From assembly GCA_964518815.1 (NCBI GenBank), contig CAZFLS010000001.1:1-49068 (forward strand): 49,068 nt of DNA. Direction: 5' to 3'. Below, piece by piece: positions 4,393 to 39,043 of this stretch. The stretch comes from an uncultured Candidatus Peribacteria bacterium (GTDB taxonomy: Bacteria; Patescibacteriota; Gracilibacteria; BD1-5; UBA2023). Numbering within the stretch: position 1 is the first letter of the stretch; each line of letters starts with the position of its first letter. The position numbers were made by a program, and so were the translations under genes. Under the pieces are notes generated by a model. The model was not told the origin of the DNA and did not search any database. It was given only the letters and a program-made list of their open reading frames with translations.

Positions 4393-6096
4393 ATGAAATC
4401 AAATAATACAATTATCAATACTGATAATAGCCAAGTTTATGCTGCTATATATTGTAGAGTAAGTACAGAAGAACAAGCAAACAATAGAATTAGTCTTCAT
4501 GATCAAGAGCAAAGATGTTTAGATAGGGCTAAACAACTTGGATATATTGTTAAACCAAAACATATTTTTCGAGATGAATGAATTAGTGGAACTTCGATCG
4601 ACAAAAGACCAGGTATGATAGAACTTCTTTCATCTATTACATGATCAAAATTTCAGAAATTCAATGATATCAATATTAGTGCGATTATTTCATTGAGTAT
4701 GGATCGTATTTCCCGTAACCATTACGATTATTTATTTTTTAAAAAGCTTTTAGAAAAACATTCGGTAAAATTTATTAGTATTGAACAAGAATACATTGGT
4801 CAAAATCAAGATGATATGGTTGCTGATCTTCTTGAAAATATTATTTCTATTTTTAATGAACTGCTAGTAAAAATTACTGCTAAAAAAACTTCTTTTGCTA
4901 TGGAAAGAAAAGTTTTGGATTGATGGCTTCCTTGACAAGCACCATTTGGCTATATGAATGTAAATATTGGATCAGATGAAAAACCAGAAAGAGTTATACG
5001 TGTTAATGAAGAAGAATCAAAAATAGTCCAAGAAATGTATAATAAATACGCCCAATGAAATTGTTCTTATTCTGATCTTACAAAATATCTCAAACAAAAG
5101 GGTTTTACAAATAAAAATGGGAAGCTTTTCGCCAAAAGTTCAGTAAACAAAATTTTAAATAATATTTTTTATACAGGAAAAATTCTTTTCAAAAATAAAG
5201 TCTATGATTGAAAACATGCGCCTATAATTAGCCAAGAATTGTTTGATAAAGTTTCTCGATTAAGTAAAGAAAGAGATCAAAATTCATTTCATCAGAAGAA
5301 ATATTATCATTATCTTTTAAAGGGTTTAATATATTGCCAAAAAACAGGCAATCCTTACTCTGCTACAAGGACTTTTAAAAAAGCTAAGGATTATACAAAG
5401 GAATATTACTTTCCAATAAAAACAAAGCAACCTGAGTGAAACCTTGATTCAAAAGAATATCAATATCTTATAAAAGGTCAATATATCGAAGTGGAAGTAT
5501 TAGAAAAAATGGTTGAAGAAGAAATAAAAAAAATAAAAATAAATTCAGATTACCTAGACCAACTAACAGAAAAAGCTCGTTCTATGTTTGAGGATCAAAA
5601 TAAGGTGAATCGTCTTGAAGAATCAAATTTAAGAAAACAGATTCGGGATATACAGTTACAAATGGAAAAACTTGAAGAAAAATATATTGAAACTAAAACT
5701 ATTTCCGATGATGTTTATACTAGATTGCATTGAAAATATGAAGATAATAAAAAGAAGCTTGAAACACAGATGAATAATAAGAGAAAAATCATAGAAATTC
5801 AAAAAACTGACTTCGATAAACTTCTTAAAATTATGAAAGATCCATATACTCTTTATAAAAATACAGATACAACAGAAGGAAAAACTAAACTATTAAAACT
5901 TATTTTTGAAAAGATTTTCGTTTACAACAAAAAAATCCAGAAGGTTCAGTACACTAGTAGTATACGTGATCTTCTAGATAATCAAGCGGTTTTGTTTCGC
6001 AAAACATGGCTCCCAATAGTTGAGGAAGTTAGAAATGTTTTTAAAGAGTTAAATTGATTTGTTTACATACCAAATTTAAATCATTCCAATTTTTAA
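4393..6096 (+). CDS. large serine recombinase (integrase), 567 aa
   Basis: YCRVSTEEQ catalytic Ser motif. FRDE-G-ISGTS and GWLPGQAPFGY with Gly as TGA. VYDGKHAPIISQELFDKV recombinase-domain motif and a C-terminal coiled coil. Five ORF-track fragments share one frame, joined by TGA. Confidence 0.9.
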
Positions 6097-7454: not shown

Positions 7455-8762
7455 CTATTTTTCACCTCCTTTCATAAAAAACTTAGTTACATCACACTTA
7501 TGAGAAGATGGTATTCTATAATCTCCATTCTCTATCAGTGCGACACCTATACAACTATCACAAAAATCTCTTATTTTGCAATTCATGCATTTCGGTATTT
7601 CTGTAATACTAAACTTATTAAGGAATTTGTATTTATTTTTTAGAATCTCATTAAGAGGTAATTTTCTTATATTTCCCATTACTATCCTTAAGTCAAGACA
7701 AGGATATACATTGCCGTCCGAACCTATAGCTATTTGATCTTTACCAGCAAAACAAACAGTTTTGTCGTTTGCACAATTTCTGTATTTTTTTTGTTCAGTA
7801 AAACCATTGATTTTTTTTAAAAATGGTGCAAATTTTTCTTTCAATTCTTTCGCTGATAGTCTTAATTCTATCCCGTATTCTAAGCCCTTTCTGTTTGGAG
7901 TAATGTATGGAGAATAAGAAACATTAACATCCCCAATCTTTTTGATTTTTTCGTGAATTTGTTCAATTTCATCAATATTATGTTTACCAACCATTACAGA
8001 TAGCGATACCGGAATACCGTTATCAATCATTTTTTTTATGGTGTCTGATAATTTACTAAAACTATAGTTTGTAGAGGTAATACCAGAAAACCCATCTTTG
8101 GTTTCATATATTGAAATTTGTAAATCTAAAAGATTTAGGTGTTTAAGTTTTTTGATTATCGTTTCATTGATAATCGTGCCGTTGGTTTTTATTTCCAAAC
8201 AAAAACCCATTTTATTATATGCAGACAATATTTCAAGAGCATCTTTTCTTAAAAATAACTCCCCTCCTGTGAATAAAACAGATACCACTCCCAAATCTTT
8301 TAATTGACGACCCAGATTTATTATAGTGTCTTTATCTAAACCTTTCTCAGTAAAATTATCCAAATAACAAAACTTACATCTTTGATTACAGTTGTTAGTA
8401 AGCTCTATGGATGCGTTAATAATCTGATCGTTTTGAATTGCATACTCGATTAATTTATCAAAAGCATTACCTCTAACGTCTACATTATCTACTTCTTTTT
8501 TATCAGAAGTGCTTTTGGCTTTTGCTTTCTTAGATATAAATGTTGCTACTATTTTTTTAATTTCTCTGTACATCTTTTTTATCTCTTTATGATCTTTTTT
8601 TTCATAGGCATCCAAATATTTCCTTTCAAGCTTGTAGTTTGGATTACTTAAAAAAATTAAAGCAATTTCTGACAATGAACCCTCAATAAAAAGAGAAGAT
8701 AAATCTTTGGTATCAAAAATAAAAACACCGTCATTATATTTTCTTGTAATAAATCTTTTCAT
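7455..8762 (-). CDS. radical SAM / SPASM-domain peptide maturase with N-terminal PqqD-like (RRE-like) region
   Basis: Intact 435-aa ORF even in the standard code. CNQRCKFC (CxxxCxxC) and GGELFL motifs. C-terminal Cys cluster CFAGKD..DGNVYPC..CMNCKIRDFCDSC..HKC is typical of SPASM. Confidence 0.85.
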   Translation of the reverse strand: MKRFITRKYNDGVFIFDTKDLSSLFIEGSLSEIALIFLSNPNYKLERKYLDAYEKKDHKEIKKMYREIKKIVATFISKKAKAKSTSDKKEVDNVDVRGNAFDKLIEYAIQNDQIINASIELTNNCNQRCKFCYLDNFTEKGLDKDTIINLGRQLKDLGVVSVLFTGGELFLRKDALEILSAYNKMGFCLEIKTNGTIINETIIKKLKHLNLLDLQISIYETKDGFSGITSTNYSFSKLSDTIKKMIDNGIPVSLSVMVGKHNIDEIEQIHEKIKKIGDVNVSYSPYITPNRKGLEYGIELRLSAKELKEKFAPFLKKINGFTEQKKYRNCANDKTVCFAGKDQIAIGSDGNVYPCLDLRIVMGNIRKLPLNEILKNKYKFLNKFSITEIPKCMNCKIRDFCDSCIGVALIENGDYRIPSSHKCDVTKFFMKGGEK

Positions 8763-11710: not shown

Positions 11711-12040
11711 ATGGCAAAAAATAAAAAGATGTTTTTAAAATATTTTAATACAATTATTTATAATAAAATATCTTTAATATATACTTTATTAATGCGTTTA
11801 TTAGAAAATTACTTACTCAATATACCCGTTTTATACTGATTAATCTTAGTTATATTTATTATTGTATTGTTATTTGCATTAGTTTCTTGAATTAAACTGT
11901 TAGTGAAAAATAAAATAAACTTTAATAATTTAAATAAAAAATATTACCTTATTATATTATATTGTTGTTTTTTACTTTTTTTATTATATTTTAGATATGA
12001 TCTTCTAAGATTTATTTTATATTTCTATAACTTCTCTTAA
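11711..12040 (+). CDS. possible small membrane protein (109 aa)
   Basis: ATG..TAA with two in-frame TGA codons and two hydrophobic stretches. Overlaps the 3' end of the convergent nuclease gene by 24 nt. Could be spurious. Confidence 0.25.
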
Positions 12041-12775
12041 GTTCTCAAAATATGCACAATAATCACATTCTTTACTTGAATCTGGTATAATATCACTATT
12101 TAAACATTTATGTAACTCTATAATAGTATTTTCTATCCAATTATCATTTCAAGTATAAGAAATAAGATTAATATCAAATTCTAACCTATAATCAAACGCG
12201 TCTTTGTCTGTATTTCAATTACAATATACAAAATATCCTGTATCTGAAACCTCAAGTCAGTTTTTTCTTAAAAGCCATTGATATATTTCCATTTGTCTCT
12301 TATATCAATCTTGCCAGTCTTGATTTAATTCTGTTATTTCTTCATTCTTTGAAGTGGCTTTATAATCTACTACAATATATTCTCAATTACTACTCTGCCA
12401 TAAGTCATCTATAGCTCAAAATATAAGTAAATTGGTTTTTGAATGTAAATACTGAATTCAAGTAAAATTATGTCTCCATTGTTCTAAAAGTTCGTGAGAT
12501 ACAGGTTTTGCATCAATATTATACTTTTCTATTAGAGGATGTTTTGCTCAATTGTTTCTGTATATATCAAATTCTTTCTTTAAAAGATGATCTACTGCAC
12601 TATTTAAACTAAAAGGAAATCCTGGAGGTCTTCAAATTCAAAGTCTTCTATCTAAATAAAAACATCTTGGACAATCTATAAATAAATCAATTTTAGATCT
12701 ACTTAATTTAAAAGGTTGACTATCTTTTGGGTTGTATATGTTTTTTGTGCGTTTTGGGTTATAATATTCTGACAT
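12017..12775 (-). CDS. PD-(D/E)XK nuclease, Cas4/RecB-like with Cys cluster
   Basis: N-terminal CPRCFY and C-terminal CDYC (four-Cys pattern as in Cas4). AIDDL...VVDYKAT (D..D/ExK) and RQMEIYQWL (QxxxY). Confidence 0.7.
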
Positions 12776-12787
12776 AAGGTTATTGTA

Positions 12788-15397
12788 TTATTTTATAAAT
12801 TTATCTTCAAAAGCTTTTTCAAATTCATTCTCTTTTTTTTCACTATAAAAAGGTAATCAAATAAGCTTATAATTTCAAAAGTTCATTTCTAATATTTTTG
12901 CTTTATCTTCTATTTCAAGTAAAAATTCTTGTTTCCAGCCTTCTATAGAATTTTCAAATCCTAAATTACTATCCTTAAATTGATCTCATTTCGGTTCTAT
13001 AAATATTTGATAAGTAAAAGGTTGTTTTGTAATTTTATCTTGCATAAACAATATAAAATCAGGCTCAAACCTATCTCAATTTATAAATGAATAAATAGCA
13101 ACAGTTCTTTCATTTCGGATTAAATAAATATTAGTATATTTTTTTTCTAATTTTTGTATTATATCTTCAAACATTTTTATAAAACTCTTTTCTTCACTAG
13201 TTCAATTGATTTTTTCAAAAACAAACCATTTTTTATTTACTCAAAATCATTCTACTCATAAATCCACTTTTATAGCTTTTTCAAAAGGATATTTAGAAAT
13301 ATTCTTTGATATAAAAGTTTTTGTTCATTCATACTCAACTTTTTTATCTTTAATTTCAATTTCTAAGATATTTAAAAGAGATGAAACAGCTTTTAACTTA
13401 TTTTCTATTGTTAAATTCTCTAAAACTTCCTTAGAGCTGTAAAAATCTATACTTATATTTCATAGATAATTATCCGATTTAATAAACTCATCAATACTTT
13501 GAAGTTTTCAAAGATAACTTTTAAGGTTGGAAAATTTATAGAAATCATTTCTTTGTATAGCTTTTCTTACAATTCTATTATCAATTTCTTTTATTAAAAT
13601 ACTTTTTGGTTCTTTTTCTATTTTAAAATTATCTTTCTTATCATCAAAAGCTTCTATATCATAGCTCTTTCAAGTAAATAAATCTTTAAATTCATATCTT
13701 TTAGTTTGGAGTCAGATTTTTTCAAAACTATCAATATTTGAATAATCTTTAAATTTTTTCTCATTTGTAAAAATAACTCAATTTTTATAAAATTCACTAT
13801 CTTTAAAGGATCTTTTAAATTCAAAAATAAAATCCTTTTTTTCTTTTTCATCCATAATTCAAATATCTCTTAAAGCCTGTCTTATTTCTGCAATATATAA
13901 ACTATCAAAACTTGTATGATAATAAAAAGTTTCAAGTATTTTTAAATCATCGAGCTTATTATCAAACTTTCTTTTGAATTTATTTTCTCATAAAGTTTTT
14001 TCTGTTACAAAAGGAAAATATCTTGCTCATCTTCATATGAGTTGAGCTTCGCTAATTGTTTGGGGTCAAACTTTGATTTTTCAAGTTTTTTTATCTACTA
14101 CATTACTTCTAGACTCATATAATCTTACAATATCAAAAAGATTTAAAACATCCCATCATTCATTTAGTTTTTGTACAGCAAAAACAGCTCTTATACGATT
14201 GTTTTTATCTTCAAGAGTATTAAGTAGTAATTGATTTTTTCAAGCCTCACTATCATCATTTGCACTTATACAATTTTCATGAACAAAATCATCTTTTAAC
14301 TCATTCACAAGTAAATCAAGACTTATTTTACTTTCTTCAAAAAATTCAAAAGCTTTTAATATAATTTCTGAATTAGTTTTGTTTTTTATATTTAAAATCT
14401 GATCTGGCTTTAATTCTTTTATAAGCTTATCAAAATTTATTAAATTATTTTCACTTTCTGCAACTGTTTTTTGAGCCTTAAATAAAATAACTGGTTTACA
14501 TAATATTTTATTTTTTTCTGCTACTTTTAATCTATATTGACTTAAAACAAGAGCCTGTAATATTCTGTCATTTTGTTCCATATCAGCCTTTAAAATATCT
14601 ACTTCTTTACTATATCAATCAAGTCTAAATTGTTTTAAATCATATCTGTAAATAATTTTATCAAGATATTTTTCGGATATATTTTCATTTCATAAATCTA
14701 TCGTTGCTGTAAATTCCAAAAGCATATTTTCTATATGAGAATTAAGAATTTTCATTATTGTATATTCCCATGAAGTCTTTTCTTCTTGTTCAGTTTTATT
14801 TAAATTTCAATTTTTTGTAAGTGTATTTATATGATGGGCTTCATCTGAAATTATAACTATTTTTTTGTCTTTGAATTCTTCATAAGATACCCTTCATTCT
14901 CATATTACATTCATATCAGTATGAAGTCCGTGAATAGTGGTAAATTTAATATTAATATTATCATCTGTATTACCTGAAAAATTAGAAACTTCTTTTATTT
15001 GTATTTGTTTTCCATCAAACACAATCTTATCATTGAATAAATACTTTGAAGAATTACTATTTAAAAAATTATCTTTCGTTTTTTCTATAATATTTGTCGA
15101 ATTTACAAAAAACAAGAAGTTTCTATATCATTTTTCATATAAGCTCAAAATAAGTCCAGCCATTACATAAGTTTTACCGCTTCAAGTTGCCATGTTATAG
15201 AGCAAATGAATAGGTATTTTCTTGTTTTTATAGCTGTCTATATAATATGAGAATCTAACAAAAGCTTCTTTTTGATACTCTCTCATCTGAAATTTTTCAT
15301 TCAGATTTTTTGTAATATTCAAAGGAATGTTCTTATCGAGAACATCCATTTCGGAAAGGGTATCAAATTTTTGGTAGAGAAATTGTTGTGTCGTCAT
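12788..15397 (-). pseudogene. res: type III restriction enzyme Res subunit (SF2 helicase + PD-ExK endonuclease), reading frame interrupted
   Basis: MAT-G-SGKT Walker A, VIISDEAHH (DEAH), LNEGWDVLNLFDIVRL and QLIGRGARY (motif VI). C-terminal RFEPDFILF..IFIEPKG endonuclease motif. In-frame TAA TAA at 13955-13960. Confidence 0.75.
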
Positions 15398-15430
15398 AGT
15401 TAATTTCTATTTTTTAAAACATAAAATAAA

Positions 15431-15781
15431 TTATTTTTTTCTAGATATTATTTTTTCAATAGTTTTTTCAAAACTATTTTCTCTTTTAATCAAAAAATAC
15501 AATATTAACATAATAATACCAATTATTAAACTAGAAAATAATATTGAAAGATATAAAATTTCATAAATTTTATCCTTAAAATTTGTTCAAGTTAATAATG
15601 TAAGTAAAGCTGTAAAAAAAACTCAAAATAAAAAAATTGATATATCAATTAAAAGTGGAAAATTATTTCTTGGTCAAGCTTTAATAATATCTAATTCTTC
15701 CTCTTGTACTTCATAAAAAGTCAGCTGTCATACTTGATGAACTATTTTTGTTGCTTGATTTTCATTATTTCAATTATTCAT
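15431..15781 (-). CDS. small two-TM membrane protein (116 aa)
   Basis: ATG..TAA, 351 nt. Hydrophobic segments LLIDISIFLFGVFFTALLTLL and ILYLSILFSSLIIGIIMLILYFL. Confidence 0.5.
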
Positions 15782-15791
15782 AATTTTGAAA

Positions 15792-16064
15792 TTAAAGATT
15801 ATCCATAAGCCACTCATTTTTACAAATAACATTTTGCCAAGCAGCAACTCTTCAAGAAAGGATAACAAATATACGATCATTACTATCTATTTTTGTTTGT
15901 AAAGAATTTCTAATATTTTCTGCACTTTGATCTGTCTTAACAGCCCATACTGATTCTAGTATCTTTGCCCAAGTACCATAAGATTTTATTGCCTGATATA
16001 AATCTTCATAATGTCAATAACTTTGATCTTTTCTTAGATCGTAACTTATAATATAAGTGTTCAT
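15792..16064 (-). CDS. small alpha/beta protein with Cas2-like motif pattern (90 aa)
   Basis: MNTYIISYDL..YEDLYQAIKSYGTWAKILESVWAVKT..AENIRNSLQTKIDSNDRIFVIL. The YDL and SVW motifs are spaced as in the Cas2 ferredoxin fold. The fold assignment is inference only. Confidence 0.45.
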
Positions 16065-16087
16065 ATTTTGGTTAGTTAAAAAATAAA

Positions 16088-18010
16088 TTATTTATAAAAC
16101 TCTCCATTAATCTTTTTATCTTCTTTACTTACTCAATTATTTACATCTTCAATCTCGCTATAATTTACATAAAGCATATTCTTATCAAGAAGCTTGAACA
16201 AAAACTTTTTCTGATTTTCTATACTTAATTTTTCAAATTCATCTGTATTTTCATCAATATTTTTAATATTTACTTTGTAATTTATATATCATGTTTTCTT
16301 TATCTCTTCATATATTTTTATTATTTCTTTACTTGTTTTAGCTTCTTGAATTTTATCAATGAAATTTTGATTATTTTTCATAAGTTCCATATAAACAAAA
16401 TCTCATCATCAATTATTTTTAATTACCTGTTGTACTCTAGGAATAGTTACATTTCTAATATAATCCATTTGCTCAATTAATATAAATTGTCTATTTCATC
16501 AATCTTCTTTATTTAATTCCAAAACTGCATGAGCTGTTGTCCCACTACCTCAAAAAAAGTCTAATATTTTTGCTTCCTTATTTTTTGAAACTATTGCATA
16601 TATACAATCATATACATTCCATAAAGATTTTGGGAAACTAAATTTACATCAAGGAACCAAACTTTTTATAAGTTTTGTTCCATATTCATTTGCATCGTAT
16701 TTTTTATCTATCCAAACTGTTTTATATTGTCAAAAATCTTTTCAAATATCAATATCATAAACATCGTTATTAACTTTCACGTGTAATAAATCTTGTACTT
16801 CTTCTATACTTTGACGAGCATATCTCCATTTTCTTTCCACTCATTCCTTATCAATTGGATAAATTTCAACAAAATCTCAATCATGTACATTAACCTGAGG
16901 ATGAGTTCAATCGGAACAAACATTTCAAAATCAGATAACCTGTAAAGTTTTTTTGTCTGCTATAATTGAATAAAAACAATTTTTAGCATCTGTTCTTTTT
17001 GACTCTCAGCCATTATCTCTTAATCATCTATTTTTTATGTCTTCTTCAGCTATTTTTCTATTTAATACTGTTTTTTTATCTTTAGGAATAATAAAAAATG
17101 CAAATTCATGGGTATAAGAAAAGTTTGTACCTTGTACTCATCTTGGATTATGAACTATTGTAATGCAATGACTCTCATATTCTGGGAATATTTCATCAAG
17201 TAATACTCATAAATATACTTGTTCAGCTTTATCAATTGCAACAATCAATACTCATTCTTTTTTAAGTAAATTCTTTGCAATATCTAACCTATTTTTCATA
17301 AAAGTAAGCCAGGAAGAATGTTTAAATCTATTATTATATTCAAAAGTATCTCAATTTCCTCAAGTATTATAAGGGGGGTCAATATAAATAAGGTCTAATT
17401 TTCATGCAAAACTGCTCTTCAAACTATGAAGAGCTAAAAGATTATTTCATTTGATAATAAGATTATCTTTTATAGTTCAATTTTCATCTCTTTTAAATCA
17501 ATCAAGCTTGTGTTCTCAAGTCTTATCTATTCTTTTGAAATTCGTAAAAACCTTTTCATCAAGAAGTCTATCTATATCATCATTTCATAAAATTTCATTA
17601 TAAAAAACTTCATCTCTTTTAACATCTTCTTTATCTTGTCCTCAAGCCAAAATACAGTCTTTATATGGAAAACTTAAAACAACATCATTGTTGTCATTTA
17701 GGAGGTCTCATTTTGAATTTGTGAGTCCGATTTTATTTTTGAAACTTGTATAGCTATCGGGTAAAAATTCTTTATTGTTTATAAACTGAATGAATTTTTT
17801 ACTATCAAAAACTTCAAAATTACTTCAATAATTTAATGATTTAAAAAATGCTTTTTTTGTGTCTTTATTATTAAAAAGTAACCATATAAGATCCCCGTCT
17901 AATTTATCTGCTTCTTCTCTTATTACATTCTTCAATAAATCTCATTCTTGAGATATAAATCTTTTGTCTTGTTTTAATACTTCATATAAAATTTGAAATA
18001 AATTTTTCAT
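16088..18010 (-). CDS. mod: type III R-M Mod subunit, N6-adenine DNA methyltransferase (beta class)
   Basis: DLIYIDPPYNTGGNGDTFEYNNRFKHSSWLTFM (DPPY motif IV) lies upstream of ILDFFGGSGTTAHAV (motif I). 1923 nt in one frame. Confidence 0.85.
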
Positions 18011-18017
18011 ATAAAAA

Positions 18018-18212
18018 GGCAATCAATAAATAAGATTGCCGAGTTTATTTGTGGTTTATTGTAGCAAAAACAAAGCAGGCAGTATATGTGCCAGAGTTTT
18101 TGCTACAAAACCTTTTCCGCATGCATTGAATTGCAGACAGTTGGACTTACCATATACTGCCTGCAGGTTTTTCAATACATACTTAAAAATACGAACTCGG
18201 TTTTGTAGCAAG
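18018..18212. other. GC-rich structured element (RNA leader/ncRNA or DNA cruciform or origin-like site)
   Basis: Perfect complementary pairs: 18060-18071/18096-18107 (12 bp), 18075-18088/18151-18164 (14 bp), 18101-18112/18199-18210 (12 bp), 18039-18045/18194-18200 (7 bp), 18018-18024/18034-18040 (7 bp). Confidence 0.5.
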
Positions 18213-18328
18213 TTCATATTAATAAAAAAAGTATAAAATCCAAATTTTTGTTAATAATTGTTAAGATTTGATTTAAATTAATGAAAAGATATAATTTAAA
18301 AAATTAGAATTAATAATAAATACTTCAA

Positions 18329-20431: not shown

Positions 20432-20736
20432 TAAAAGAATTAAAAAGAAAAGAACAAGATATTTTACAACGATTAATGGATCATTCTAAAGCAGATGAAC
20501 AATTTTTAATAACAAGTTCTTATATATTGGAACTAGCAAATCGTGCTTATGAACTATTTGAAAGTTCGCAAGCTGAGCAAAAACGAAGATTACTAAATTT
20601 TGTATTTGCGAACTTTTCTGCACAAGGCAGTAAACTACAATACAAAATAAAAGAGCCGTTCAACGAACTGCTCTTTGCTTCAAAATCTTCAAATTGGCTC
20701 CCGCAGCTGGATTCGAACCAGCGACCAAATGGTTAA
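20395..20736 (+). pseudogene. C-terminal remnant (about 100 aa) of a large serine recombinase, reading into tRNA-Asn
   Basis: ITSNEYDKIIKELKRKEQ..LLNFVFANFS..SNWLP aligns by eye with the last 100 aa of the intact recombinase (..LLKLIFEKIF..RKTWLP). The final codons LPQLDSNQRPNG are the antisense of the tRNA gene. Confidence 0.7.
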
Positions 20737-20769
20737 CAGCCACCTACTCTACCGCTGAGCTATGCGGGA
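20695..20769 (-). tRNA. tRNA-Asn (anticodon GTT), CCA encoded
   Basis: TCCCGCA-TA-GCTC-AGCGGTA-GAGT-A-GGTGG-CTGTTAA-CCATT-TGGTC-GCTGG-TTCGAAT-CCAGC-TGCGGGA-G-CCA. 7-bp acceptor stem, TTCGAAT T-loop, 75 nt. Confidence 0.9.
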
Positions 20770-28124: not shown

Positions 28125-31058
28125 CTATTTTTTTAAAGCTAATTCAATATTTTCCTTAGCTTTTGAAGCAATGTTTGTAGCTTCTTTTTTATATTCTGGT
28201 GTTAATAAATCTTGTGTTACTTGATAAGTTGCAATTCATAATGATGAAAAAGTTAAGACTTTTCCTGCTCCTGAACCAATCTTTGCTGCAGTAAGTATTT
28301 TTTCTCACTTAGCACTTTGTCCTAATATAAATAATCCTTCTTTTATTTTTCATAACATTGTTCAATCTTTAGCTATATCAGCTACTTTAGTTGCGGTTTT
28401 TGTTCATTTAATTGAGTTCATTCAAACTCTTGCCCATTGAGATTGTCATAAGGTTACTAGTGATGCTGCATCAGCTAATGTACCAACTACTCAAAATCAA
28501 AACCTAATTCACCTGTCTACTCGTTTTAAATTTCTTCAAGCTAAATCTTGACCTGTAAATGCAGCTTTAAAATCAAGAATTTCACTTGTAATAGGTAATA
28601 ATCAAAATCAAAGCTCAGCGGCATCGTGTTTAAAATTATCTGTTCACCATGATTGTGCAACTGTATATGCTCAAAATCATAAAAATCCTACTTTTAGTCA
28701 AAGTTTACTTGTAGAATAAACTTTTCAAGCTACTGGAACTTTAGATAATCAAGTATCAATAATAACTCAAAGATGACTTAAATTACCAAATATTGCCTGT
28801 GACAACTTGTATCTAGTAGTATTGTCAAAAGAATGTTTATTATATAAACTTTCAATATTTTTTAAATGTGATTCTACTTTTAAAGCTTGTCCTTGGTTTT
28901 TTTTCAAAATTTCTTCATCAATAATTTTCATATCATTCAATGCATTATTTCTTATTATTCATTCTGCTGAATAATCGTTTTTTACAAAAACACCTTTAAT
29001 AGAATCAATAAATCATTCTTTTCCGTTTTTTCTAGCCTTTCTTATTTCTCTTTCTGCATTTTCTGCAATAATCCTTTTATCTCTCGTAAGCTTTTCAACA
29101 AGCTTATTATATGATTCAGCTTCAGTTCTTAATTTTTCTGTAACTCAGTTTAATTCTGCAATTTGTTTAGGGTTTTTAATTACTTCATTAAAATTAGTTC
29201 TATTAGTAACACTTTCTAAAACTTTCGGATTTTCTGTCATAAATTTGTTAAATAATTTGTCTCTTAAGACAGATTCTTTTGATGATAATTCCGTTTTTGA
29301 AATAAGAGCTTCAAGTTGAGTATATTCTTTTATAAGATCTTTATTTTTACCTATTCATAATCATTCTCTTTCTATTCATTCTATTCTCTGTCTTACTGAC
29401 CAACTAGTAAAATGTTTTCATATTTCAAATCTTTTGCCTTTTATCCAATAAAACAATATAGGTGCATCAAGACTCCAATGTAAGGAACCATCTGGTTTTG
29501 TTTCTTTATCCTTTCATCATTCTGTAGTCGCAACTGCTGCTCAAGTAGCCACTGCTCATACTTCTACTCAAGATGTTTCTTTTTTTCAATCTCAAGATTT
29601 TTCAACTTTTCAGTTATTAATTAATGTTCATGTAGAATCTGGAATAATTTTAATCAAAACATCTTCTACTAGTTCATCTCTTCAAAATTTCATTCATTTA
29701 GTTTTTTCTGCTAAATACTCTTTTACTGCTTTCTCATGTTCTTTTTTTACTGGATCTTCTTTTTCAATTCCAATTTTTTCCTTTACATAGCCCTTAAAAG
29801 AATCCCATACTCATCAAATACTAAAAGATGTATTTATATATTCATTTGCTTTACATTGAGAAATTGTTTTTATTAATGCAGGATCAATTTCTTTAGTTAA
29901 TCATTTGCTTTTCTGAATTTCAGCTCAAACTTGTTTTGTATATTCATCAGTTAATTTTGAAGTTTTCATTGAATCAACTCAAAAAATTAATACTTTTATT
30001 GCATCCCATATTTGAAATTTAGCAAATAATTCAAGTGCTTTTGTTAACCTGTTTTCATCAATATTAATATTTAAAGTATCTTTAAAAAATGTCTTTACTC
30101 ATTCAGATTCAAGAGCTTTTCAAAGTCAAAATATTCACAAAACTCATCCTAAAATCCATTTCCAAGCCGATCAGCCTGGTATTTTATCAAATATTTTTGA
30201 TAAAAATCATTCCTCCTTTTTTTCTGATCATTTTGAGTTATCTTCTCACCCAAAAATTCATGAAAATATTTTATATAACCCATAAGCTCAAAGTACGGCT
30301 CATCATACAGCTAAATAAGGATGTTCTTCTGCAAATTTCATTATTGGATTTTTATCAGAAATTTCTGAAGATTTTCATTCTTTTATTTTTTCTTTTATTT
30401 CTTGAATACTAGGAACGCTTTTTTTCGCACTTGATACAACATTATTTAATTTTTCATTTAAATAAATATAAATTGGTTTATCTTTATGATTACAAATTTC
30501 TTTCAATTTTTGTAGAACAATCTTATCTGTTTTATTTAAATTAAGTGTTGAAGAATTTATATTAGACAATTCCTCAAGATTTGTTATTTTTTTTCAGTTT
30601 ACAAGCGCATTATTGATTATTGCAAAAAGAGAAAATTTAAAAAGATTAAAGGCTTTTTTTTGACTTTCTATAGATTCTGTTGGTTTTATACTTAATATCT
30701 CTTTAATTTGTCACAAATGCTCCATATCTGCTATTTCTTTAGAACTTTTTTCAGAATCTAAGCCCTCTTTTAATTGATCTCTTTTTAATTTTGCTGTTGA
30801 TTTTGTTGAAGCTTTTACAGCTTCTTTAGTAATATTTAATTTTTCTTTAATTTTTTCCTTTATTTGTCTCTCAATTTCTTGAGTTTCAATTCAAGATTCA
30901 ATAAATTTTTTCAAATTATCTAATTCTTCTATGGTAAACTCTATTGTTTGTTTAATTTCAGGAATAGACAAAGTTCCGGAAAATCAGATCTTTTCCTTTA
31001 GTTCTTCAAGTGAAGATATTTTTATTTTTTCTAATCAATTTTTATTTTCTGATACCAT
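28125..31058 (-). CDS. 977-aa membrane-associated protein with pre-toxin-TG-like motif and Gly-zipper C-terminus
   Basis: 2934 nt in frame. Helical N-terminus and several hydrophobic Gly-rich segments. LLPITSEILDFKAAFTGQDLAGRNLKRVDRG (about 28505-28602) fits the PT-TG pattern P..TG.D..G..L...R. The C-terminus has AAKIGSGAGKVLTFSSLGIATY. Confidence 0.5.
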
Positions 31059-31088
31059 AAATTTCTTTATAATTTAATAAGTTTATTA

Positions 31089-31769
31089 TTATTGTGTAGT
31101 AGTCCATGACCTTATTCTTTCTAATTTTCTTACAAGTCATAATTTTTCTGCTACATCTGTGGTAACATCTCTATCAATAAATAATGTCTTTGCTCATTTT
31201 GATCAATGTAATTCTAGACCTTGAAAATTACTGGTTAAATCAGCTCACTGTAAGACTTCAATATATCAATCATTATCTTTTGCTTTTATTAATGCATGTG
31301 CTACTGCTAACTTACTTCATTTATTATTTTTATCTATTCTAAGAAAGTGTTTTTTTCAAGAAATATTTACAAGATAAAAATCAAACTCTTTATTATAGGC
31401 CAAAAATCTTTCTGGTATGATATTTCTAATTTCAGACTCTGTAATAGTAAAATCCATAAATCAAGTACGACCTGTTACTCCAATTTCTTTTGCGTTTTGT
31501 TTAGCAAAATATTTAGAATCAAGTTCTTTAAATCTCTTAATAATATCTCCAAAATCTTTAATTAATTTTTCTCTTTTTTTATAATCATCTCAATCAAGTG
31601 GTGCTTCTTGCCAAACTATTAACTTGCTTCTTAAAGATTCTAATTTAGTTTTTATTGTGTTATATAATCTCTCATACTCAAGATATGACATATTAGTTTT
31701 ATCTAAAGTTTTTATATTTGAAGCTAGATTTTTTGATTCTTGAGTATATTCATTAAAAAATTTATCCAT
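31089..31769 (-). CDS. hypothetical helical protein (226 aa)
   Basis: ATG at 31769 to TAA at 31089-31091, 681 nt in frame. Confidence 0.45.
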
Positions 31770-31789
31770 GTAATGCTTTTGATTAAAAA

Positions 31790-31942
31790 TTAAATTTTAT
31801 TTTTTATTCATTTTTTTAATTGTTTTCTTGTTACTTGAGAAGAAAATTTGGTCATATTTTTCTCAAAATTCTTACAAATCTCTTGAAAATCCAAAAGTGC
31901 TTTACAATTATCTTCTATTTCTTCATTATAAGTTTTTGTCAT
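31790..31942 (-). CDS. small helical protein (50 aa)
   Basis: MTKTYNEEIEDNCKALLDFQEICKNFEKNMTKFSSQVTRKQLKKGIKNKI. Same frame as ORF-track 31808..32005, read through its TGA. Confidence 0.35.
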
Positions 31943-31955
31943 AAAATAAATTAAA

Positions 31956-33689
31956 TTAAATTGTAGGTATTGGCGTATTAGACTTTTTTCCAGAAAATTT
32001 TTCATTATCCAATTCTTGATCTACTTCTCATTCCATACTAGAGCTAGTTTTTTCATCAGATTCTTTTGAATAAACAATATTAATTACATCTTTTACTCTT
32101 TTATCCTTAGTTTGTTCTTTGAATTTTTCTTTTGAACCAAATTTTTCAACTCATTTTTTATATAAATCTTCCATATATTTTTTAAATTCTTTTTGTTCAT
32201 TTTTATCTTTTATACCAAAATCAGCAGCACTTTTTCAAGAAATATTTAATACTCAAATAGAATATATATTATCAAAATCATTTTCAATTAAATCATTACC
32301 TAAATATTTATAAGAATTATATACATGCCACTCTGTAAGTTTTTTCTGTCATTCTTCTGTCAAATAATCCCATGATTTTCATACTTTACTTTTTGCCCAA
32401 TTAAAAGCTTCTTCTAATTTTTGTCATGTAGTATCAATTCCTTTTCATACAGTTCATCATTCTATTGATTTTGCTAGTTTTTCTACCAATCAAATACTAT
32501 CTAACACTCAATATGACCCCACAACTGCTAAAATAGTCGCAAATGTCTTTGATCCTCAGTCAAATGGTTTTCAAAAAATCCACCAAACTCAAAGTACTAA
32601 AAGAGACAAAACACAAGCTGGACTCATTTTACCACTCATTTTTCATATAAAATCTAAAGGGTCTCTAACTACATCTGCTAAAGATTGTTTTGTAAGTAAA
32701 TCTTCTGGAATTTTTTCTCAAGTTGCCTTCTCTACATGTTGACCAAGACTTTTTGGGTCTTTTTGTGCATTATCTCTTGCTGATACTCATTCATCTTGAT
32801 GTTTAGCTAAAGAATTTTTATCGTTTATATAAGCTATTAAAAATGTTTTTTCTGTTTCTTTAAGATTAGAATTAAGAATTGATTCTATAATTTTTGGTTT
32901 ATCTTTTTCTTCTATAATATCTGGAAAGATTATTTTTTTCTTTTCTTCTTGTCATATAAAATTTTTATTATGATCATTTACTATTTTTTTAGCTAATTCA
33001 TCAATATTTTTTTCTTTGCCATTCACATCATACATAAAAGAATTTACAACTGTAAGATTATCAAATTCCTCTTTTGTAATATTTTCTTTTATTATTTTAT
33101 TATATTTTTCATTTATTTCTCATCATTTTTGATTTACTACGCTAAGTCAATCTTTTTGGCTCAAAATACATAAATTATTAGAGTAAATAAATTGACTCAT
33201 TATAAAATTTAACATTAAATTTCTAGACGCTTTATCTTTAATTTCATTATTTTTTAGTAATTCAAAAGCTTTTTGTAATCATTTTTCATTTTTTTCTTTT
33301 ATTGAATTAATTTGATTTTTTAAATTTCCTAATTCATCTCAAGTATTTGTTTTTATTTCTTCTTTTTTTATTTTGAATTGTTCAATAAATTTTTGTACAA
33401 TTTCCTTGTCTTTTTCTTCTGATTTTTCTGTAGTCAAACTCTCTTTAAGATTTATAATATCTTTTTTTGAACACTCTATAGTTTGTTTCCAGTCTATTTT
33501 GATTTTATCAATATCTTCATCTTTCATTCATACCTCTTGTAATTTTTGTTTTAACACATCAAAAGTACTAATTTTAAATTTTTCATTAGTATCTTCAGAT
33601 ACTGAAGGATTTTTCTTGTCTAATTGAGCAGCTTCTTTTCAAGTATTTTGTGATCCTTCATTAGTAGGATTTTTAGCTTTATCTACCAT
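31956..33689 (-). CDS. 577-aa membrane protein, hypothetical
   Basis: 1734 nt in frame, including ORF-track fragment 33339..33527. Coiled-coil N-terminal half, hydrophobic segments PACVLSLLVLGVWWIFG and FATILAVVGSYGVL. Confidence 0.5.
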
Positions 33690-33851
33690 GCTTTTATATT
33701 AAAATATAAATTTACTTACTTCTTAATTTTAACATAAAATAAAATAAAGTGCAAATTTTGGAACTCTATTTTTTTGATAAAATATAGACAAATTAGAAAA
33801 TTTATGTTTGATAAAAAAATTTTACTCACATAGGGTATTGGTTCCCGAAAT

Positions 33852-33888
33852 AAAAAAAACAGAAGGTGTTACACTTTCTGTTTTTTTT
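33852..33888. terminator. bidirectional rho-independent terminator
   Basis: A8-CAGAAGGTG-TTA-CACTTTCTG-T8. Confidence 0.7.
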
Positions 33889-33900
33889 GGAAGAGAAATT

Positions 33901-34605
33901 TTAGTAAAAATATAACCTTTCGGAATCACCTTTTTTAAAAATAATAAACTTTTTTCATTGTTTCATTAATTTAATTATTGTTTTGTAATGCTTTATTAAT
34001 TCTTTTGTTATATTAATTTTTTCTCATATTGAAGGTTCTACTACAAATACATCTCAAAACTCAATATCACTTAATTTATTTGAATGATGATTAACTATAC
34101 AAGTTTCATCTGTAAAAAAATTATAAGTTACACCTGATTTAGTAAAACTTGCTTTTTGTCTTTGTCATTCAGGATACGCCTTTATATCAAAAACAATATT
34201 TTTACTTTCTTCTAAAAAATTTGTACGTAAACTTGCAAATTTTTTTGTAAGTTTTTCTAATTTAGACTCATTTGACTCAATAGATTTTCTAGATTTAGTA
34301 GATTTATTATTTACTCAAATTTTTAAAGTATTTAAAATTTTTGTATTAGTTTTTTTCTTTACTTTAGCAATTTTACTACCAGAATTAATATCCTCAAAAG
34401 TAGAAATTATACCATTTTTTTCTTGAAACATTTTAGTTAATTGTTCCTTTCAATATTCAATTAATTTTTCATCACCACTTGTAAGATATGTAATAGCTAA
34501 ATCTAATTCGTTTTTTAATTCTCAATTTTCTCTTGCTGCCTCTACATCAGTTAATTTACCTTCTTGTGCTTCTTCTTCTATAAATCTATGTTTATTTGTA
34601 TTCAT
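33901..34605 (-). CDS. hypothetical protein (234 aa)
   Basis: ATG at 34605 to TAA at 33901-33903, 705 nt in frame. Confidence 0.45.
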
Positions 34606-34701
34606 AATAATAAAATTAAATTAATAAAATATATTGAATCCTGATTATAATAAAATTTAACTTAAAATAAAATTTAATATCAGCTCTAGAAGATTAATAA
34701 A

Positions 34702-37509: not shown

Positions 37510-37670
37510 AATTTCTAAAATTAATTTATATATTACAACCTAATCTTACCATATTTTTAATTTAAACGCAAATTTTGAAGGCTCTTTTTTTATATATATT
37601 AATTTAGATTTAATCTATATTTTATGCCGAAATTTAATTACTTTATTTTTGATTTTAAACTAAATGTTTC

Positions 37671-37700
37671 AAAAAAAGACACAAAATTGTGTCTTTTTTA
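37671..37700. terminator. bidirectional hairpin terminator
   Basis: A7-GACAC-AAAATT-GTGTC-T6, downstream of the toxin gene on the minus strand. Confidence 0.6.
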
Positions 37701-37716
37701 TACCAAATTTCTACAA

Positions 37717-39025: not shown

Positions 39026-39043
39026 TAATTAAAACTGTAGAGA

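What the first reader, a model, noticed from the sequence alone, without database searches (positions are those of the whole stretch)
12017..18010. Type III R-M operon with Cas2-like, membrane and Cas4-like passenger genes
mod (16088-18010) and res (12788-15397) are normally adjacent. Here two small genes sit between them: a 90-aa protein whose YIISYDL...ESVWAV...DRIFVIL pattern mimics the Cas2 ferredoxin fold, and a two-TM 116-aa protein. A four-Cys PD-(D/E)XK Cas4/RecB-like nuclease follows res after 12 nt. All five genes are co-directional with gaps of about 10-25 nt, which suggests one operon. No CRISPR array or other cas genes are in the window. This could be an undescribed composite defence module in which the R-M core is coupled to accessory effector or sensor genes.
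Basis: partly seen in the sequence, partly recalled or inferred. Interest (0 to 1): 0.65.

Follow-up and report, generated by a model that had tools for sequence, protein, structure and literature searches.

The report
Restriction operon split by toxin-antitoxin-like pair
A restriction-modification operon in a bacterium that reads TGA as glycine has a small mobile two-gene pair (a Cas2-shaped protein plus a membrane protein, resembling a toxin-antitoxin pair) inserted between its two genes, and it sits next to a highly conserved nuclease that often neighbours defence genes; the five genes are a mosaic, not one new defence machine.

Summary
Under code 25 (TGA=Gly), five co-directional minus-strand genes lie 10-33 nt apart: mod, a 90-aa Cas2-fold protein, a 116-aa two-TM protein, res, and a 252-aa PD-(D/E)XK nuclease. 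The window has no CRISPR array.

The interpretation as one composite module is only partly supported. The five-gene order was found only in the same strain.

The two small genes are an autonomous cassette. Of 22 assessable loci from many phyla, 12 have the same TM partner directly downstream, with no mod/res nearby. All four TM-side look-ups have the Cas2-like gene immediately upstream. The Cas2-like gene also occurs alone in phages (phrog_1090) and on small plasmids. In the window a 14-nt direct repeat, present only twice in 49 kb, brackets the pair.

The fold is Cas2-like, and the top structural hit is GhoS. The architecture mirrors the type V GhoS/GhoT toxin-antitoxin pair, but family membership is not shown.

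The nuclease is a very conserved CPR solo-Cas4-like gene. Its 5' side carries varied defence systems (R-M-like hits upstream in 10/39 loci, downstream in 0/37). Published work on solo-Cas4 partly anticipates this.

Verdict: a mosaic defence locus. The widespread, uncharacterised Cas2-fold/2-TM pair is the most interesting part.

The parts
16088..18010 (-). Type III R-M methyltransferase (mod), 640 aa, intact
   Evidence: PADLOC MTase_III 1e-129 over residues 131-639. Pfam N6_N4_Mtase 4e-23 and TypeIII_RM_meth 3e-17. The DPPY motif (IYIDPPYNTG) comes before FxGxG (FFGGSGTT), read directly from the translation.
16080..16093 (.). Left copy of the 14-nt direct repeat AAAATAAATTATTT; overlaps the mod stop codon
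   Evidence: The 14-mer occurs only twice in the 49-kb window. Expected 0.22 copies; 2 of 100 shuffles reach two copies. Together with the copy at 15423-15436 it brackets the two-gene pair; the spacing is 657 nt.
15792..16064 (-). 90-aa stand-alone Cas2-fold protein (phrog_1090 family); proposed antidote or controller of the membrane protein
   Evidence: AF2 pLDDT 90.1, with a b-a-b-b-a-b fold plus a C-terminal helix. Foldseek finds GhoS, many Cas2 structures, BPSL1038 and VapD. phrog_1090 1.7e-23. The family has 2251 clusters at E<=1e-10. Invariant residues include I6, S7, Y8, D9, L10, S38 and W40.
15431..15781 (-). 116-aa protein with a conserved soluble N-terminus (SL..YE....EL.....G), two TM helices and a basic C-terminal tail; proposed membrane toxin or effector
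   Evidence: Collinear with 12 partner proteins from other phyla (alignment A9). tblastn to L007 gives 1.3e-5 and to L019 3.7e-5. The family has 548 proteins at E<=1e-3. No Pfam, NCBIfam or PHROG family matches.
15423..15436 (.). Right copy of the 14-nt direct repeat; overlaps the stop codon of the TM gene
   Evidence: DNA homology with the L001 cassette ends right after this stop codon.
12788..15397 (-). Type III R-M restriction subunit (res), 869 aa, intact
   Evidence: PADLOC REase_III 5e-135 over residues 20-866. Pfam ResIII 1.6e-29. Walker A (MATGSGKT), DEAH (SDEAHH) and a C-terminal PD...(D/E)XK motif (EPDFILF...IFIEPKG) were read from the translation.
12017..12775 (-). 252-aa PD-(D/E)XK nuclease of the RecB/Cas4 superfamily (solo-Cas4-like, pfam12705), highly conserved in CPR bacteria
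   Evidence: PDDEXK_1 2.5e-14 and Cas_Cas4 2.8e-5. More than 8000 homologs, with the top 120 at 70-78% identity. Invariant GAIDD..VDYK..Q.E.YQWL plus six invariant Cys. The AF2 model matches AdnA/AddB nuclease domains, Cas4, Exo5 and ACE1.

Best explanation
The locus is a mosaic of three units that are co-oriented and probably co-transcribed. It is not one dedicated five-gene machine.

(1) An intact Type III restriction-modification system, Mod plus Res.

(2) A self-contained cassette of about 657 bp inserted precisely into the short mod-res spacer. It encodes a stand-alone Cas2-fold protein followed by a small two-TM membrane protein. The pair is a widespread mobile module whose layout mirrors the type V toxin-antitoxin pair GhoS/GhoT. 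Most likely the membrane protein is the harmful effector, damaging or depolarising the membrane, and the Cas2-fold protein keeps it in check. By analogy with GhoS, it could do so by cleaving the effector's mRNA; alternatively it could bind the effector. The module would then act as an addiction or abortive-infection element. It happens to sit inside, and so be expressed with, the R-M operon.

(3) A resident, highly conserved CPR nuclease of the RecB/Cas4 superfamily. In many genomes its 5' side carries variable defence cargo, and the Type III system here is one such cargo.

Shown: gene identities, folds, the autonomy and distribution of the pair, the border repeat, and the upstream/downstream asymmetry around the nuclease. 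Inferred: toxicity of the TM protein, the antidote role and RNase activity of the Cas2-fold protein, co-transcription, and any functional cooperation between the nuclease and the R-M system.
For: The pair is autonomous.
- Of 25 loci found from the Cas2-like side, 12 have the homologous TM partner directly downstream (from a 41-nt overlap to a 4-nt gap), 10 are solo and 3 are cut by contig ends.
- None of the 12 has a mod, res or Cas4-like homolog within the up to 10 kb held on each side. Their neighbours are mostly unrelated metabolic genes.
- Four look-ups from the TM side (6 contigs) all show a Cas2-like gene immediately upstream, overlapping by one base.
- In the closest relative, L001 (also code 25; 72% and 66% aa identity), the pair lies among dapA/dapB/asd/lysC genes beside a Y1-transposase-like gene. 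DNA homology to the window starts about 25 nt before the Cas2-like ATG and ends at the TM stop codon.

Insertion. The 14-mer AAAATAAATTATTT occurs only twice in the window, at 15423-15436 and 16080-16093. The copies bracket the pair, and each overlaps a stop codon. mod and res are adjacent in three other Type III-like operons.

Fold and analogy.
- The AF2 model has pLDDT 90. The Foldseek top hit is GhoS (2llz, E 6.7e-4), followed by many Cas2 structures with TM-scores of 0.54-0.67.
- The family profile against E. coli GhoS gives hhalign E 2e-4, aligning beta-1 and the YG..E..T..A..I segment.
- E. coli has the same gene order: ghoS, 27 nt, ghoT.
- GhoT is a 57-aa two-TM membrane toxin, and GhoS cleaves its mRNA (PMC4344625, PMC4010927).

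Mobility. The family is phrog_1090. It occurs in 50 phage records and 92 plasmids, including plasmids of 3-6 kb. On the 4150-bp plasmid pHNLW22-3 the Cas2-like gene follows an RHH-like gene and a different protein with two hydrophobic segments.

Which partner is toxic. The Cas2-like gene is often solo, while the TM partner was never seen without it.

Nuclease.
- 80% mean column identity across CPR classes.
- R-M-like seed hits upstream in 10/39 loci against 0/37 downstream (Fisher p = 0.001), and 10 of 11 hits are on the same strand.
- Upstream Pfam families include ResIII, N6_Mtase/Eco57I/MmeI, Methylase_S, GmrSD, SduA_C, RVT_1 and AAA_21. Downstream genes are housekeeping.
- Solo-Cas4 in CPR has been described as vertically inherited (PMC5704561).
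Against: - No experiment supports toxicity or antidote activity.
- The TM partner has no detectable similarity to GhoT (hhalign probability 0.4%). It is twice as long and has a conserved soluble N-terminal segment.
- The GhoS similarity is weak: hhalign probability 47%, Foldseek TM-score 0.48. By HMMER the family is nearer to Cas2 (7mi4_E, E 0.0077) than to GhoS, which was not found at E<=10.
- Cas2/VapD relatives are usually the toxic partner, so the roles could be reversed.
- Sitting inside an operon, with tight spacing, is also what a functionally recruited accessory would look like.
- L027 shows a solo Cas2-like gene beside Shedu and a Type III-like R-M, so some link to defence islands exists.
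- Diverse defence genes end only 1-12 nt before the nuclease gene. That is tighter than a passive neighbour would suggest and fits real cooperation.
- The TM-side sample is small: four look-ups.
Confidence: 0.6

Rival explanations
1. One reading: all five genes form one integrated composite defence system, in which the Cas2-like, membrane and Cas4-like proteins act as sensors or effectors coupled to the Type III R-M core.
For: The five genes are co-directional with gaps of 10-33 nt, and no terminator-like site lies between them. The nuclease family recurs directly downstream of R-M genes elsewhere. In L027 a solo Cas2-like gene lies next to Shedu and a Type III-like mod-res. The coupling of immunity and suicide modules has been proposed in general terms (PMC3632139).
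Against: The five-gene order was found only in contigs of the same strain. None of the 12 pair-bearing loci has mod, res or the nuclease within the up to 10 kb held on each side. In other Type III-like operons mod and res are adjacent. The pair is bracketed by an insertion-type direct repeat. The nuclease is found next to many unrelated defence types and also next to housekeeping genes.
Confidence: 0.1
2. The Cas2-fold/2-TM pair is mainly a phage-defence (abortive infection) system. Infection would inactivate or titrate the Cas2-fold protein, and the membrane protein would then collapse the membrane potential. This does not exclude toxin-antitoxin behaviour.
For: The family is common in prophages, in moron-like positions with its own promoter near the CI repressor, and on plasmids. 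It is sometimes found in defence islands (L027) or beside AbiEii-like ATPases, KAP NTPase and GmrSD. Small membrane effectors are a common abortive-infection theme (own knowledge). Toxin-antitoxin systems are argued to inhibit phage (PMC7438911).
Against: Most neighbours of the pair are ordinary metabolic genes. PADLOC has no dedicated model; only weak Cas2 hits were found. The prophage copies inspected are solo and lack the TM partner. No phenotype data exist.
Confidence: 0.25
3. Roles reversed: the Cas2-fold protein is a VapD-like nuclease toxin, and the membrane protein is its antitoxin or immunity factor.
For: VapD and other Cas2 relatives are nuclease toxins (PMC11980593, PMC10491678). 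The family keeps the beta-1 Asp (invariant D9) and other invariant polar residues.
Against: The Cas2-like gene is frequently solo: 10 of 22 assessable loci, plus phages and plasmids. That is hard to reconcile with an unguarded toxin. The TM partner was never seen without it. Known VapD antitoxins are soluble SH3-fold proteins or inactivated VapD proteins (PMC11980593). VapD is only a low-ranked structural match (rank 34).
Confidence: 0.1
4. The PD-(D/E)XK nuclease is a true functional partner of the upstream defence systems. It would act as a general end-processing or degrading helper, in a role like that of RecBCD/AddAB, and defence operons would recruit it by inserting in front of it. It would not be merely a conserved neighbour of an insertion hotspot.
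For: The defence genes are on the same strand, with gaps of 1-12 nt in many loci. The upstream/downstream asymmetry is strong (10/39 against 0/37, p = 0.001). The fold matches AdnAB/AddAB nuclease domains and Cas4. The Cas4-family ACE1 enhances pAgo immunity (PMC12094033). Solo-Cas4 next to R-M genes in DPANN has been read as a defence role, and pfam12705 UvrD fusions neighbour Type III Mod/Res (PMC5704561).
Against: Well over half of the loci have no recognisable defence gene upstream; GyrB, cyclophilin, Hsp70 and MurJ also occur there. The 80% column identity across classes and the reported vertical inheritance look like a housekeeping repair gene (PMC5704561). The upstream cargo types are too varied for a specific protein-protein partnership.
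Confidence: 0.3

Closest known systems
GhoS/GhoT type V toxin-antitoxin system of E. coli
   Same: The gene order and architecture match: a stand-alone Cas2-fold protein of about 90-100 aa, followed within about 10-30 nt by a small two-TM membrane protein. GhoS is the top Foldseek hit. There is weak profile similarity in beta-1 and the following strands (hhalign E 2e-4).
   Different: There is no similarity between the TM partner and GhoT. The partner is 116-150 aa, with a conserved soluble N-terminus, against 57 aa for GhoT. No Pfam hit to a GhoS family appeared at E<=1, where the best hit was CRISPR_Cas2. The pair occurs across many bacterial phyla, whereas no GhoST relatives outside enterobacteria are known to me (own knowledge). 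mRNA cleavage is untested.
CRISPR-associated Cas2
   Same: The ferredoxin-type b-a-b-b-a-b fold, with TM-scores of 0.54-0.67 to many Cas2 structures. A beta-1 motif ending in Asp. Weak matches to several Cas2 profiles. Some members are named Cas2 in databases.
   Different: Scores are below the Pfam and TIGRFAM cut-offs. No cas1, cas genes or CRISPR array lies nearby. The family has its own strongly conserved motifs (YIISYDL, ESVW, AAW..(I)C..EWL). The partner is a membrane protein, not Cas1.
VapD-family type II toxin-antitoxin systems (VapXD, VapYD, VapWD) and the BPSL1038 Cas2/VapD nuclease subfamily
   Same: These are stand-alone Cas2-superfamily proteins encoded in two-gene modules on mobile elements. 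BPSL1038 (7vxr) is among the best structural matches (TM-score 0.67), and VapD (6zi1) also matches.
   Different: The known partners are soluble (SH3-fold VapX/VapY, or inactivated VapD = VapW), and VapD is the toxin (PMC11980593). Here the partner is a two-TM protein, and the distribution suggests the Cas2-fold protein is not the toxic partner.
Solo-Cas4 / pfam12705 Cas4-like nucleases of CPR and DPANN (Hudaiberdiev et al. 2017, PMC5704561)
   Same: A RecB-type PD-(D/E)XK core with conserved cysteines, encoded outside CRISPR loci, over-represented in small-genome CPR bacteria and strongly conserved. Adjacency to R-M genes was noted there for DPANN, and for UvrD-Cas4 fusions with Type III Mod/Res.
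   Different: The cysteine pattern is N-terminal CxxC plus C-terminal CxxC, with two further invariant Cys, rather than the 1+3 pattern. The protein scores below the TIGR00372 cas4 cut-off. The variety of defence cargo on its 5' side in CPR genomes, and the upstream-only asymmetry, are shown here and not in that paper's passages that I read.
EcoP15I-type Type III restriction-modification systems
   Same: Mod (beta-class N6-adenine methyltransferase domain plus the TypeIII_RM_meth domain) lies upstream of Res (SF2 helicase plus a C-terminal PD-(D/E)XK). Both match the PADLOC Type III models over their full length.
   Different: mod and res are separated by two unrelated genes (657 nt), instead of being adjacent or overlapping.
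ACE1, the Argonaute-associated Cas4-family nuclease (PMC12094033)
   Same: A stand-alone Cas4-family nuclease co-encoded with an innate immune nuclease. It is a structural match at E of about 7e-4.
   Different: The structural similarity is low (TM-score 0.31). ACE1 forms a specific heterodimer with its pAgo, whereas the window's nuclease sits next to many different systems and also next to none.

Membership tests
Type III restriction-modification system | Mod subunit with an N6/N4 methyltransferase domain and the Type III Mod N-terminal domain | tested here: met
   Pfam N6_N4_Mtase 4.4e-23 and TypeIII_RM_meth 3.1e-17; PADLOC MTase_III 1e-129. The DPPY and FxGxG motifs were read from the translation.
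Type III restriction-modification system | Res subunit with an SF2 helicase/ATPase domain and a C-terminal PD-(D/E)XK endonuclease motif | tested here: met
   Pfam ResIII 1.6e-29; PADLOC REase_III 5e-135 covering residues 20-866. GSGKT, DEAH and EPD...EPK motifs were read from the translation.
Type III restriction-modification system | mod immediately upstream of res in one operon | tested here: not met
   The order is kept, but two unrelated genes lie between them. In L031, L086 and L027 the gap is 1-10 nt.
Type III restriction-modification system | ATP-dependent cleavage that requires two inversely oriented unmethylated sites, with hemimethylation by Mod | not testable with these tools
   Biochemical property.
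CRISPR-associated Cas2 | Ferredoxin-like b-a-b-b-a-b fold with a conserved Asp at the end of beta-1 | tested here: met
   AF2 pLDDT 90.1 with elements E2-9, H20-27, E31-36, E39-44, H48-56, E64-69. Many Cas2 structures match at TM-scores of 0.54-0.67. D9 is invariant.
CRISPR-associated Cas2 | Score above the curated family thresholds (Pfam PF09827, TIGR01573) | tested here: not met
   PF09827: 18.4 bits against a cut-off of 23.8. TIGR01573: 14.5 against 24.5.
CRISPR-associated Cas2 | Encoded next to cas1 and a CRISPR array | tested here: not met
   No CRISPR-type repeat array in the window. No cas hits among the five genes or the 9 flanking proteins, apart from the weak Cas2/Cas4 profile hits. 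The contexts of relatives show no cas1.
GhoS/GhoT type V toxin-antitoxin | Antitoxin with a Cas2-like fold, related to GhoS | tested here: inconclusive
   GhoS (2llz) is the top Foldseek hit, but with a TM-score of 0.48. hhalign of the family against GhoS gives E 2e-4 and probability 47%. GhoS was not found by HMMER at E<=10.
GhoS/GhoT type V toxin-antitoxin | Small two-TM membrane toxin related to GhoT, encoded directly downstream | tested here: not met
   The position and the two TM helices match, but there is no sequence similarity to GhoT (hhalign probability 0.4%). The protein is also twice as long and has an extra conserved N-terminal segment.
GhoS/GhoT type V toxin-antitoxin | The antitoxin neutralises the toxin by cleaving its mRNA | not testable with these tools
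   Needs RNA cleavage and toxicity assays.
VapD-type type II toxin-antitoxin | VapD-like toxin paired with a VapX/VapY (SH3-fold) or VapW (inactive VapD) antitoxin | tested here: not met
   The partner is a two-TM protein with no Pfam or NCBIfam family. VapD is only a low-ranked structural match (rank 34, E 0.021).
Cas4 (CRISPR-associated) / solo-Cas4 | RecB-type PD-(D/E)XK catalytic core (D...D/ExK, QxxxY) | tested here: met
   Invariant GAIDD, VDYK and Q.E.YQWL. PDDEXK_1 at 54.3 bits and Cas_Cas4 at 24.7 bits, against a cut-off of 22.7. Foldseek hits Cas4 (7mi4_A, 4r5q) and the AdnA/AddB nuclease domains.
Cas4 (CRISPR-associated) / solo-Cas4 | Four Cys in the 1 N-terminal + 3 C-terminal pattern that holds the Fe-S 'iron staple' | tested here: inconclusive
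   Six invariant Cys, arranged as C35-x2-C38 ... C185 ... C224 ... C237-x2-C240. This differs from the 1+3 pattern described in PMC12094033. The spatial clustering of the cysteines was not examined.
Cas4 (CRISPR-associated) / solo-Cas4 | Equivalog-level match to cas4 (TIGR00372), or adjacency to cas1/cas2 | tested here: not met
   TIGR00372: 37.5 bits against a cut-off of 65. No cas1 nearby. The family profile finds no solved structure by sequence at E<=0.01.

The most novel reading that the evidence does not exclude
The Cas2-fold/2-TM pair would be a large, overlooked family of GhoST-like (type V-like) toxin-antitoxin or abortive-infection modules. It is found paired across many bacterial phyla, and the Cas2-fold protein alone is found in archaeal MAGs, phages and plasmids. 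A stand-alone Cas2 relative would control a membrane-damaging partner. This would supply the missing wider family for the single known type V system, and a living example of the Cas2-as-toxin-antitoxin-component ancestry proposed for CRISPR adaptation modules. Nested inside an R-M operon, it could also tie membrane suicide to expression of the restriction system. A second novel reading is that the CPR solo-Cas4-like nuclease is a shared helper into which diverse innate defence systems plug.
Probability: 0.3. Interest if true: 0.75.

Novelty: new variant of a known kind. Interest (0 to 1): 0.5.

Why it matters
1. As far as I know, type V toxin-antitoxin systems rest on a single example, GhoS/GhoT. 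A family with thousands of Cas2-fold members, hundreds of them paired with a conserved two-TM partner, would show whether that architecture is general. It would also give testable material on what stand-alone Cas2-fold proteins do outside CRISPR.

2. The locus shows how defence loci are built in CPR bacteria, which rarely carry CRISPR-Cas (PMC6509639). A mobile cassette is nested inside an R-M operon, and the operon itself occupies a variable slot in front of a conserved Cas4-like nuclease. If that nuclease cooperates with the systems placed in front of it, it would be a shared defence helper in organisms that probably lack RecBCD/AddAB. That last point is my assumption and was not checked here.

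3. Practically, many database entries call this family 'Cas2' or 'SinR'. That is misleading for CRISPR surveys of phages and plasmids.

Tried and rejected
- Table 11 ORF calling fragments every gene, so it was replaced by code 25.
- The promoter and terminator scans were at chance level in this 24% GC sequence and say nothing about operon structure.
- An empirical comparison of gene 3' ends first made the border repeat look weak, because an unrelated gene end gave an equally long but different match. The exact 14-mer count in the whole window is the better test.
- The 'phage holin' label on one TM-partner homolog (P0225) is not backed by any NCBIfam or PHROG holin model, so it was rejected.
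- The weak CARF_TM (PADLOC, 0.018) and TIR_2 (Pfam, 0.083) hits on the small proteins were treated as noise.
- The second contigs carrying P0001 (L029, L030) turned out to be the same strain, so they give no independent support for the gene order.
- The original GhoST paper (PMC3514572) is not held, so secondary sources were used.
- The nuclease family profile finds no solved structure by sequence, so a fold comparison was needed.
- Rfam has no match for the structured region upstream of mod.
- The VapD-type toxin-antitoxin model was considered and rejected for the reasons given under rival explanations.
- pVip (viperin) PADLOC hits on the radical-SAM/SPASM protein at 7455-8762 were judged to be generic radical-SAM similarity and not followed up.

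Full report
**Observation**

The window is 24% GC and cannot be read with the standard code. It has 13 ORFs of at least 100 aa under table 11 and 54 when only TAA and TAG are stops.

TGA encodes glycine (code 25). Both TGA codons of the 90-aa gene align with Gly in homologs; the database copy, translated under code 4, has Trp there. All 10 TGA codons of the nuclease gene fall on invariant or near-invariant Gly columns. TGA at codon 36 of the TM gene falls on the invariant Gly of its family.

Under code 25 the minus strand carries five genes:
- mod, 16088-18010
- a 90-aa gene, 15792-16064
- a 116-aa gene, 15431-15781
- res, 12788-15397
- a 252-aa gene, 12017-12775

The gaps between them are 23, 10, 33 and 12 nt.

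Mod and Res match the PADLOC Type III models over their full length (1e-129 and 5e-135) and carry the expected motifs. The 90-aa protein hits several Cas2 profiles weakly. The 252-aa protein hits PDDEXK_1 and Cas4 profiles. There is no CRISPR array.

**The 90-aa protein**

It belongs to a large, well-conserved family of stand-alone proteins of about 88 aa. The family has 2251 clusters (at 50% identity) at E<=1e-10 and 5644 at E<=1e-3. Invariant residues include I6, S7, Y8, D9, L10, S38 and W40.

An AlphaFold model built with 36 sequences is confident (pLDDT 90.1). It has a b-a-b-b-a-b fold plus a C-terminal helix. Foldseek returns GhoS as the top hit, followed by a long list of Cas2 structures (TM-scores 0.54-0.67), BPSL1038 and VapD.

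By sequence the family profile touches Cas2 only marginally (7mi4_E, E 0.0077). It aligns to E. coli GhoS with hhalign E 2e-4 and probability 47%.

The family is phrog_1090, of unknown function. It occurs in 50 phage records and 92 plasmids, where it is often labelled Cas2 or SinR. The protein is a member of the Cas2 superfamily but not a CRISPR Cas2. It scores below the curated cut-offs and has no cas1 or array next to it.

**The pair is an autonomous cassette**

I examined 25 loci found from the Cas2-like side. They include Calditrichota, Gemmatimonadota, Binatia, Saccharibacteria and Pirellulaceae, plus a code-25 relative. Twelve of them have a homolog of the window's TM protein directly downstream (from a 41-nt overlap to a 4-nt gap). 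Ten are solo, and three are cut by contig ends.

The partners share a conserved N-terminal segment (SL..YE....EL.....G), two TM helices and a basic tail with I..R. The family has 548 proteins and belongs to no curated family.

None of the 12 pair-bearing loci has a mod, res or Cas4-like homolog within the up to 10 kb held on each side. Their neighbours are mostly unrelated metabolic genes, with scattered mobile-element and defence genes.

Four look-ups that started from the TM side all found a Cas2-like gene immediately upstream, overlapping by one base. One of these contigs (L118) has an Mrr/ResIII-type gene 2.9 kb away, but the pair is not nested in it.

On a 4150-bp ColE1-type plasmid the Cas2-like gene ends a three-gene operon: an RHH-like protein, a different protein with two hydrophobic segments, then the Cas2-like protein.

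**Insertion into the mod-res spacer**

In the closest relative (L001) the pair lies among lysine-biosynthesis genes. DNA homology to the window begins about 25 nt before the Cas2-like start codon and ends at the TM stop codon.

In the window the 14-mer AAAATAAATTATTT occurs exactly twice in 49 kb, at 15423-15436 and 16080-16093. The copies bracket the pair, and each overlaps a stop codon. The expected count is 0.22, and 2 of 100 shuffles reach two copies.

In three other Type III-like operons seen here, mod and res are 1-10 nt apart. The five-gene order was found only in two short contigs that are 99.9-100% identical to the window, which means the same strain. I conclude that a cassette of about 657 bp was inserted into the mod-res spacer without damaging either gene.

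**How the pair probably works**

The layout copies E. coli ghoS-ghoT: a 98-aa Cas2-fold antitoxin, 27 nt, then a 57-aa two-TM toxin. GhoS neutralises GhoT by cleaving its mRNA (PMC4344625, PMC4010927).

The distribution fits the same polarity. The Cas2-fold gene is often solo, while the TM gene was never found without it. That is the pattern expected if the TM protein is harmful and the Cas2-fold protein is its antidote.

This is inference. The TM partner is unrelated in sequence to GhoT, it is longer, and no activity has been tested. The module may act as an addiction element, an abortive-infection element, or both. The reverse polarity, with a VapD-like toxin, is less likely because of the solo copies.

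**The nuclease**

The 252-aa protein has more than 8000 homologs. The best 120 are 70-78% identical and come from many CPR classes. Mean column identity is 75-80%, with an invariant RecB-type core and six invariant cysteines. Its model (pLDDT 79.9) matches the nuclease domains of AdnAB and AddAB, Cas4, Exo5, MGME1, ACE1 and lambda exonuclease, with TM-scores of 0.31-0.50. No solved structure is found by sequence.

I examined 83 loci. In 33 of them the gene immediately upstream on the same strand lies within 60 nt, often within 1-8 nt. The upstream proteins include ResIII (11), N6_Mtase/Eco57I/MmeI (6), Methylase_S, GmrSD, Shedu SduA_C, reverse transcriptases, AbiEii-like ATPases and MazF. GyrB, cyclophilin, Hsp70 and MurJ also occur there. 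The downstream proteins are housekeeping genes with no recurring defence family.

R-M-like BLAST seeds hit upstream in 10 of 39 loci and downstream in 0 of 37 (Fisher p = 0.001). Excluding the two seed loci gives 8 of 37 against 0 of 35 (p = 0.005).

Hudaiberdiev et al. (PMC5704561) already reported several related points:
- solo-Cas4 is over-represented in CPR and DPANN genomes;
- it evolves mainly vertically;
- it lies next to R-M genes in several DPANN genomes;
- pfam12705 Cas4-like domains, as UvrD fusions, most often neighbour Type III Mod/Res.

So the nuclease is a resident, conserved gene with a variable defence slot on its 5' side, and the window's Type III system is one occupant of that slot. 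Whether the nuclease actually helps the upstream systems, as ACE1 helps pAgo (PMC12094033), remains open.

**Verdict**

The locus is a mosaic of three parts: a Type III R-M system, a nested GhoST-like Cas2-fold/2-TM cassette, and a resident solo-Cas4-like nuclease. The most interesting element is the widespread, uncharacterised Cas2-fold/2-TM pair. I found no description of it in the literature I could search.

Noticed in passing
window 18030-18235 (minus strand, directly upstream of the mod start at 18010): This stretch is GC-richer than its surroundings and folds into three long hairpins. The MFE is -67 kcal/mol, against -37 +/- 4 for shuffles (z = -7.2). It has no Rfam family (best E 0.4), is single-copy in the window and is absent from all fetched loci. 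It could be a structured leader, a small RNA, or the end of a mobile element.
   Followed up: partly
window 4393-6096 (+), 7455-8762 (-), 20695-20769 (-): A large serine recombinase (Resolvase + Recombinase domains), a radical-SAM/SPASM protein (weak pVip-model hits that are probably generic) and a tRNA-Asn flank the region. A serine recombinase also lies near the nuclease gene in L032. The R-M block may belong to a larger integrated island. No att repeats were searched for.
   Followed up: no
L027 9101-16657 (Candidatus Colwellbacteria MAG, JAQTUL010000010.1): A compact defence island: a LexA-like repressor, a solo Cas2-like gene, Shedu (SduA_C), then a Type III-like mod and res 1 nt apart. 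It is the only other case where this Cas2-like family sits near a Type III-like system.
   Followed up: partly
L115 13-810 (Klebsiella quasipneumoniae plasmid pHNLW22-3, 4150 bp): A three-gene operon on a tiny ColE1-type plasmid: a 72-aa RHH-like protein, a 100-aa protein with two hydrophobic segments (unrelated to the window's TM partner), and a Cas2-like protein 57% identical to P0006. This hints that the Cas2-like family pairs with more than one kind of small membrane protein.
   Followed up: partly
L031 1-6756 and L048 2504-8741: Between the Type III-like Res and the conserved nuclease lies a 938-aa SMC_N/AAA-like protein, which recurs in L048 and L053 (27-36% identical over the aligned parts). 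This may be a distinct three- or four-gene R-M-like system ending at the nuclease.
   Followed up: no
proteins P0347 (184 aa) and P0391 (1507 aa): These are rare fused forms of the Cas2-like domain: a tandem duplication in a 184-aa protein, and two copies embedded in a 1507-aa protein. They could indicate what the domain binds or acts on.
   Followed up: no
window 28125-45425 (minus strand): A run of very large, Gly-rich (TGA-rich, up to 6% of codons), coiled-coil and TM-containing proteins of 577-1345 aa. I did not run any family search on them. They may be cell-surface or secretion-related proteins of this code-25 organism.
   Followed up: no
phage records (e.g. NC_055019.1, NC_028821.1, MK416011.1): Members of the phrog_1090 family in Staphylococcus, Enterococcus and Klebsiella phages are annotated variously as 'CRISPR-associated endonuclease Cas2', 'CRISPR associated protein' or 'SinR'. 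No CRISPR context was seen in the contexts I inspected (L006, L116; the others were not opened), so these names are probably misleading.
   Followed up: no
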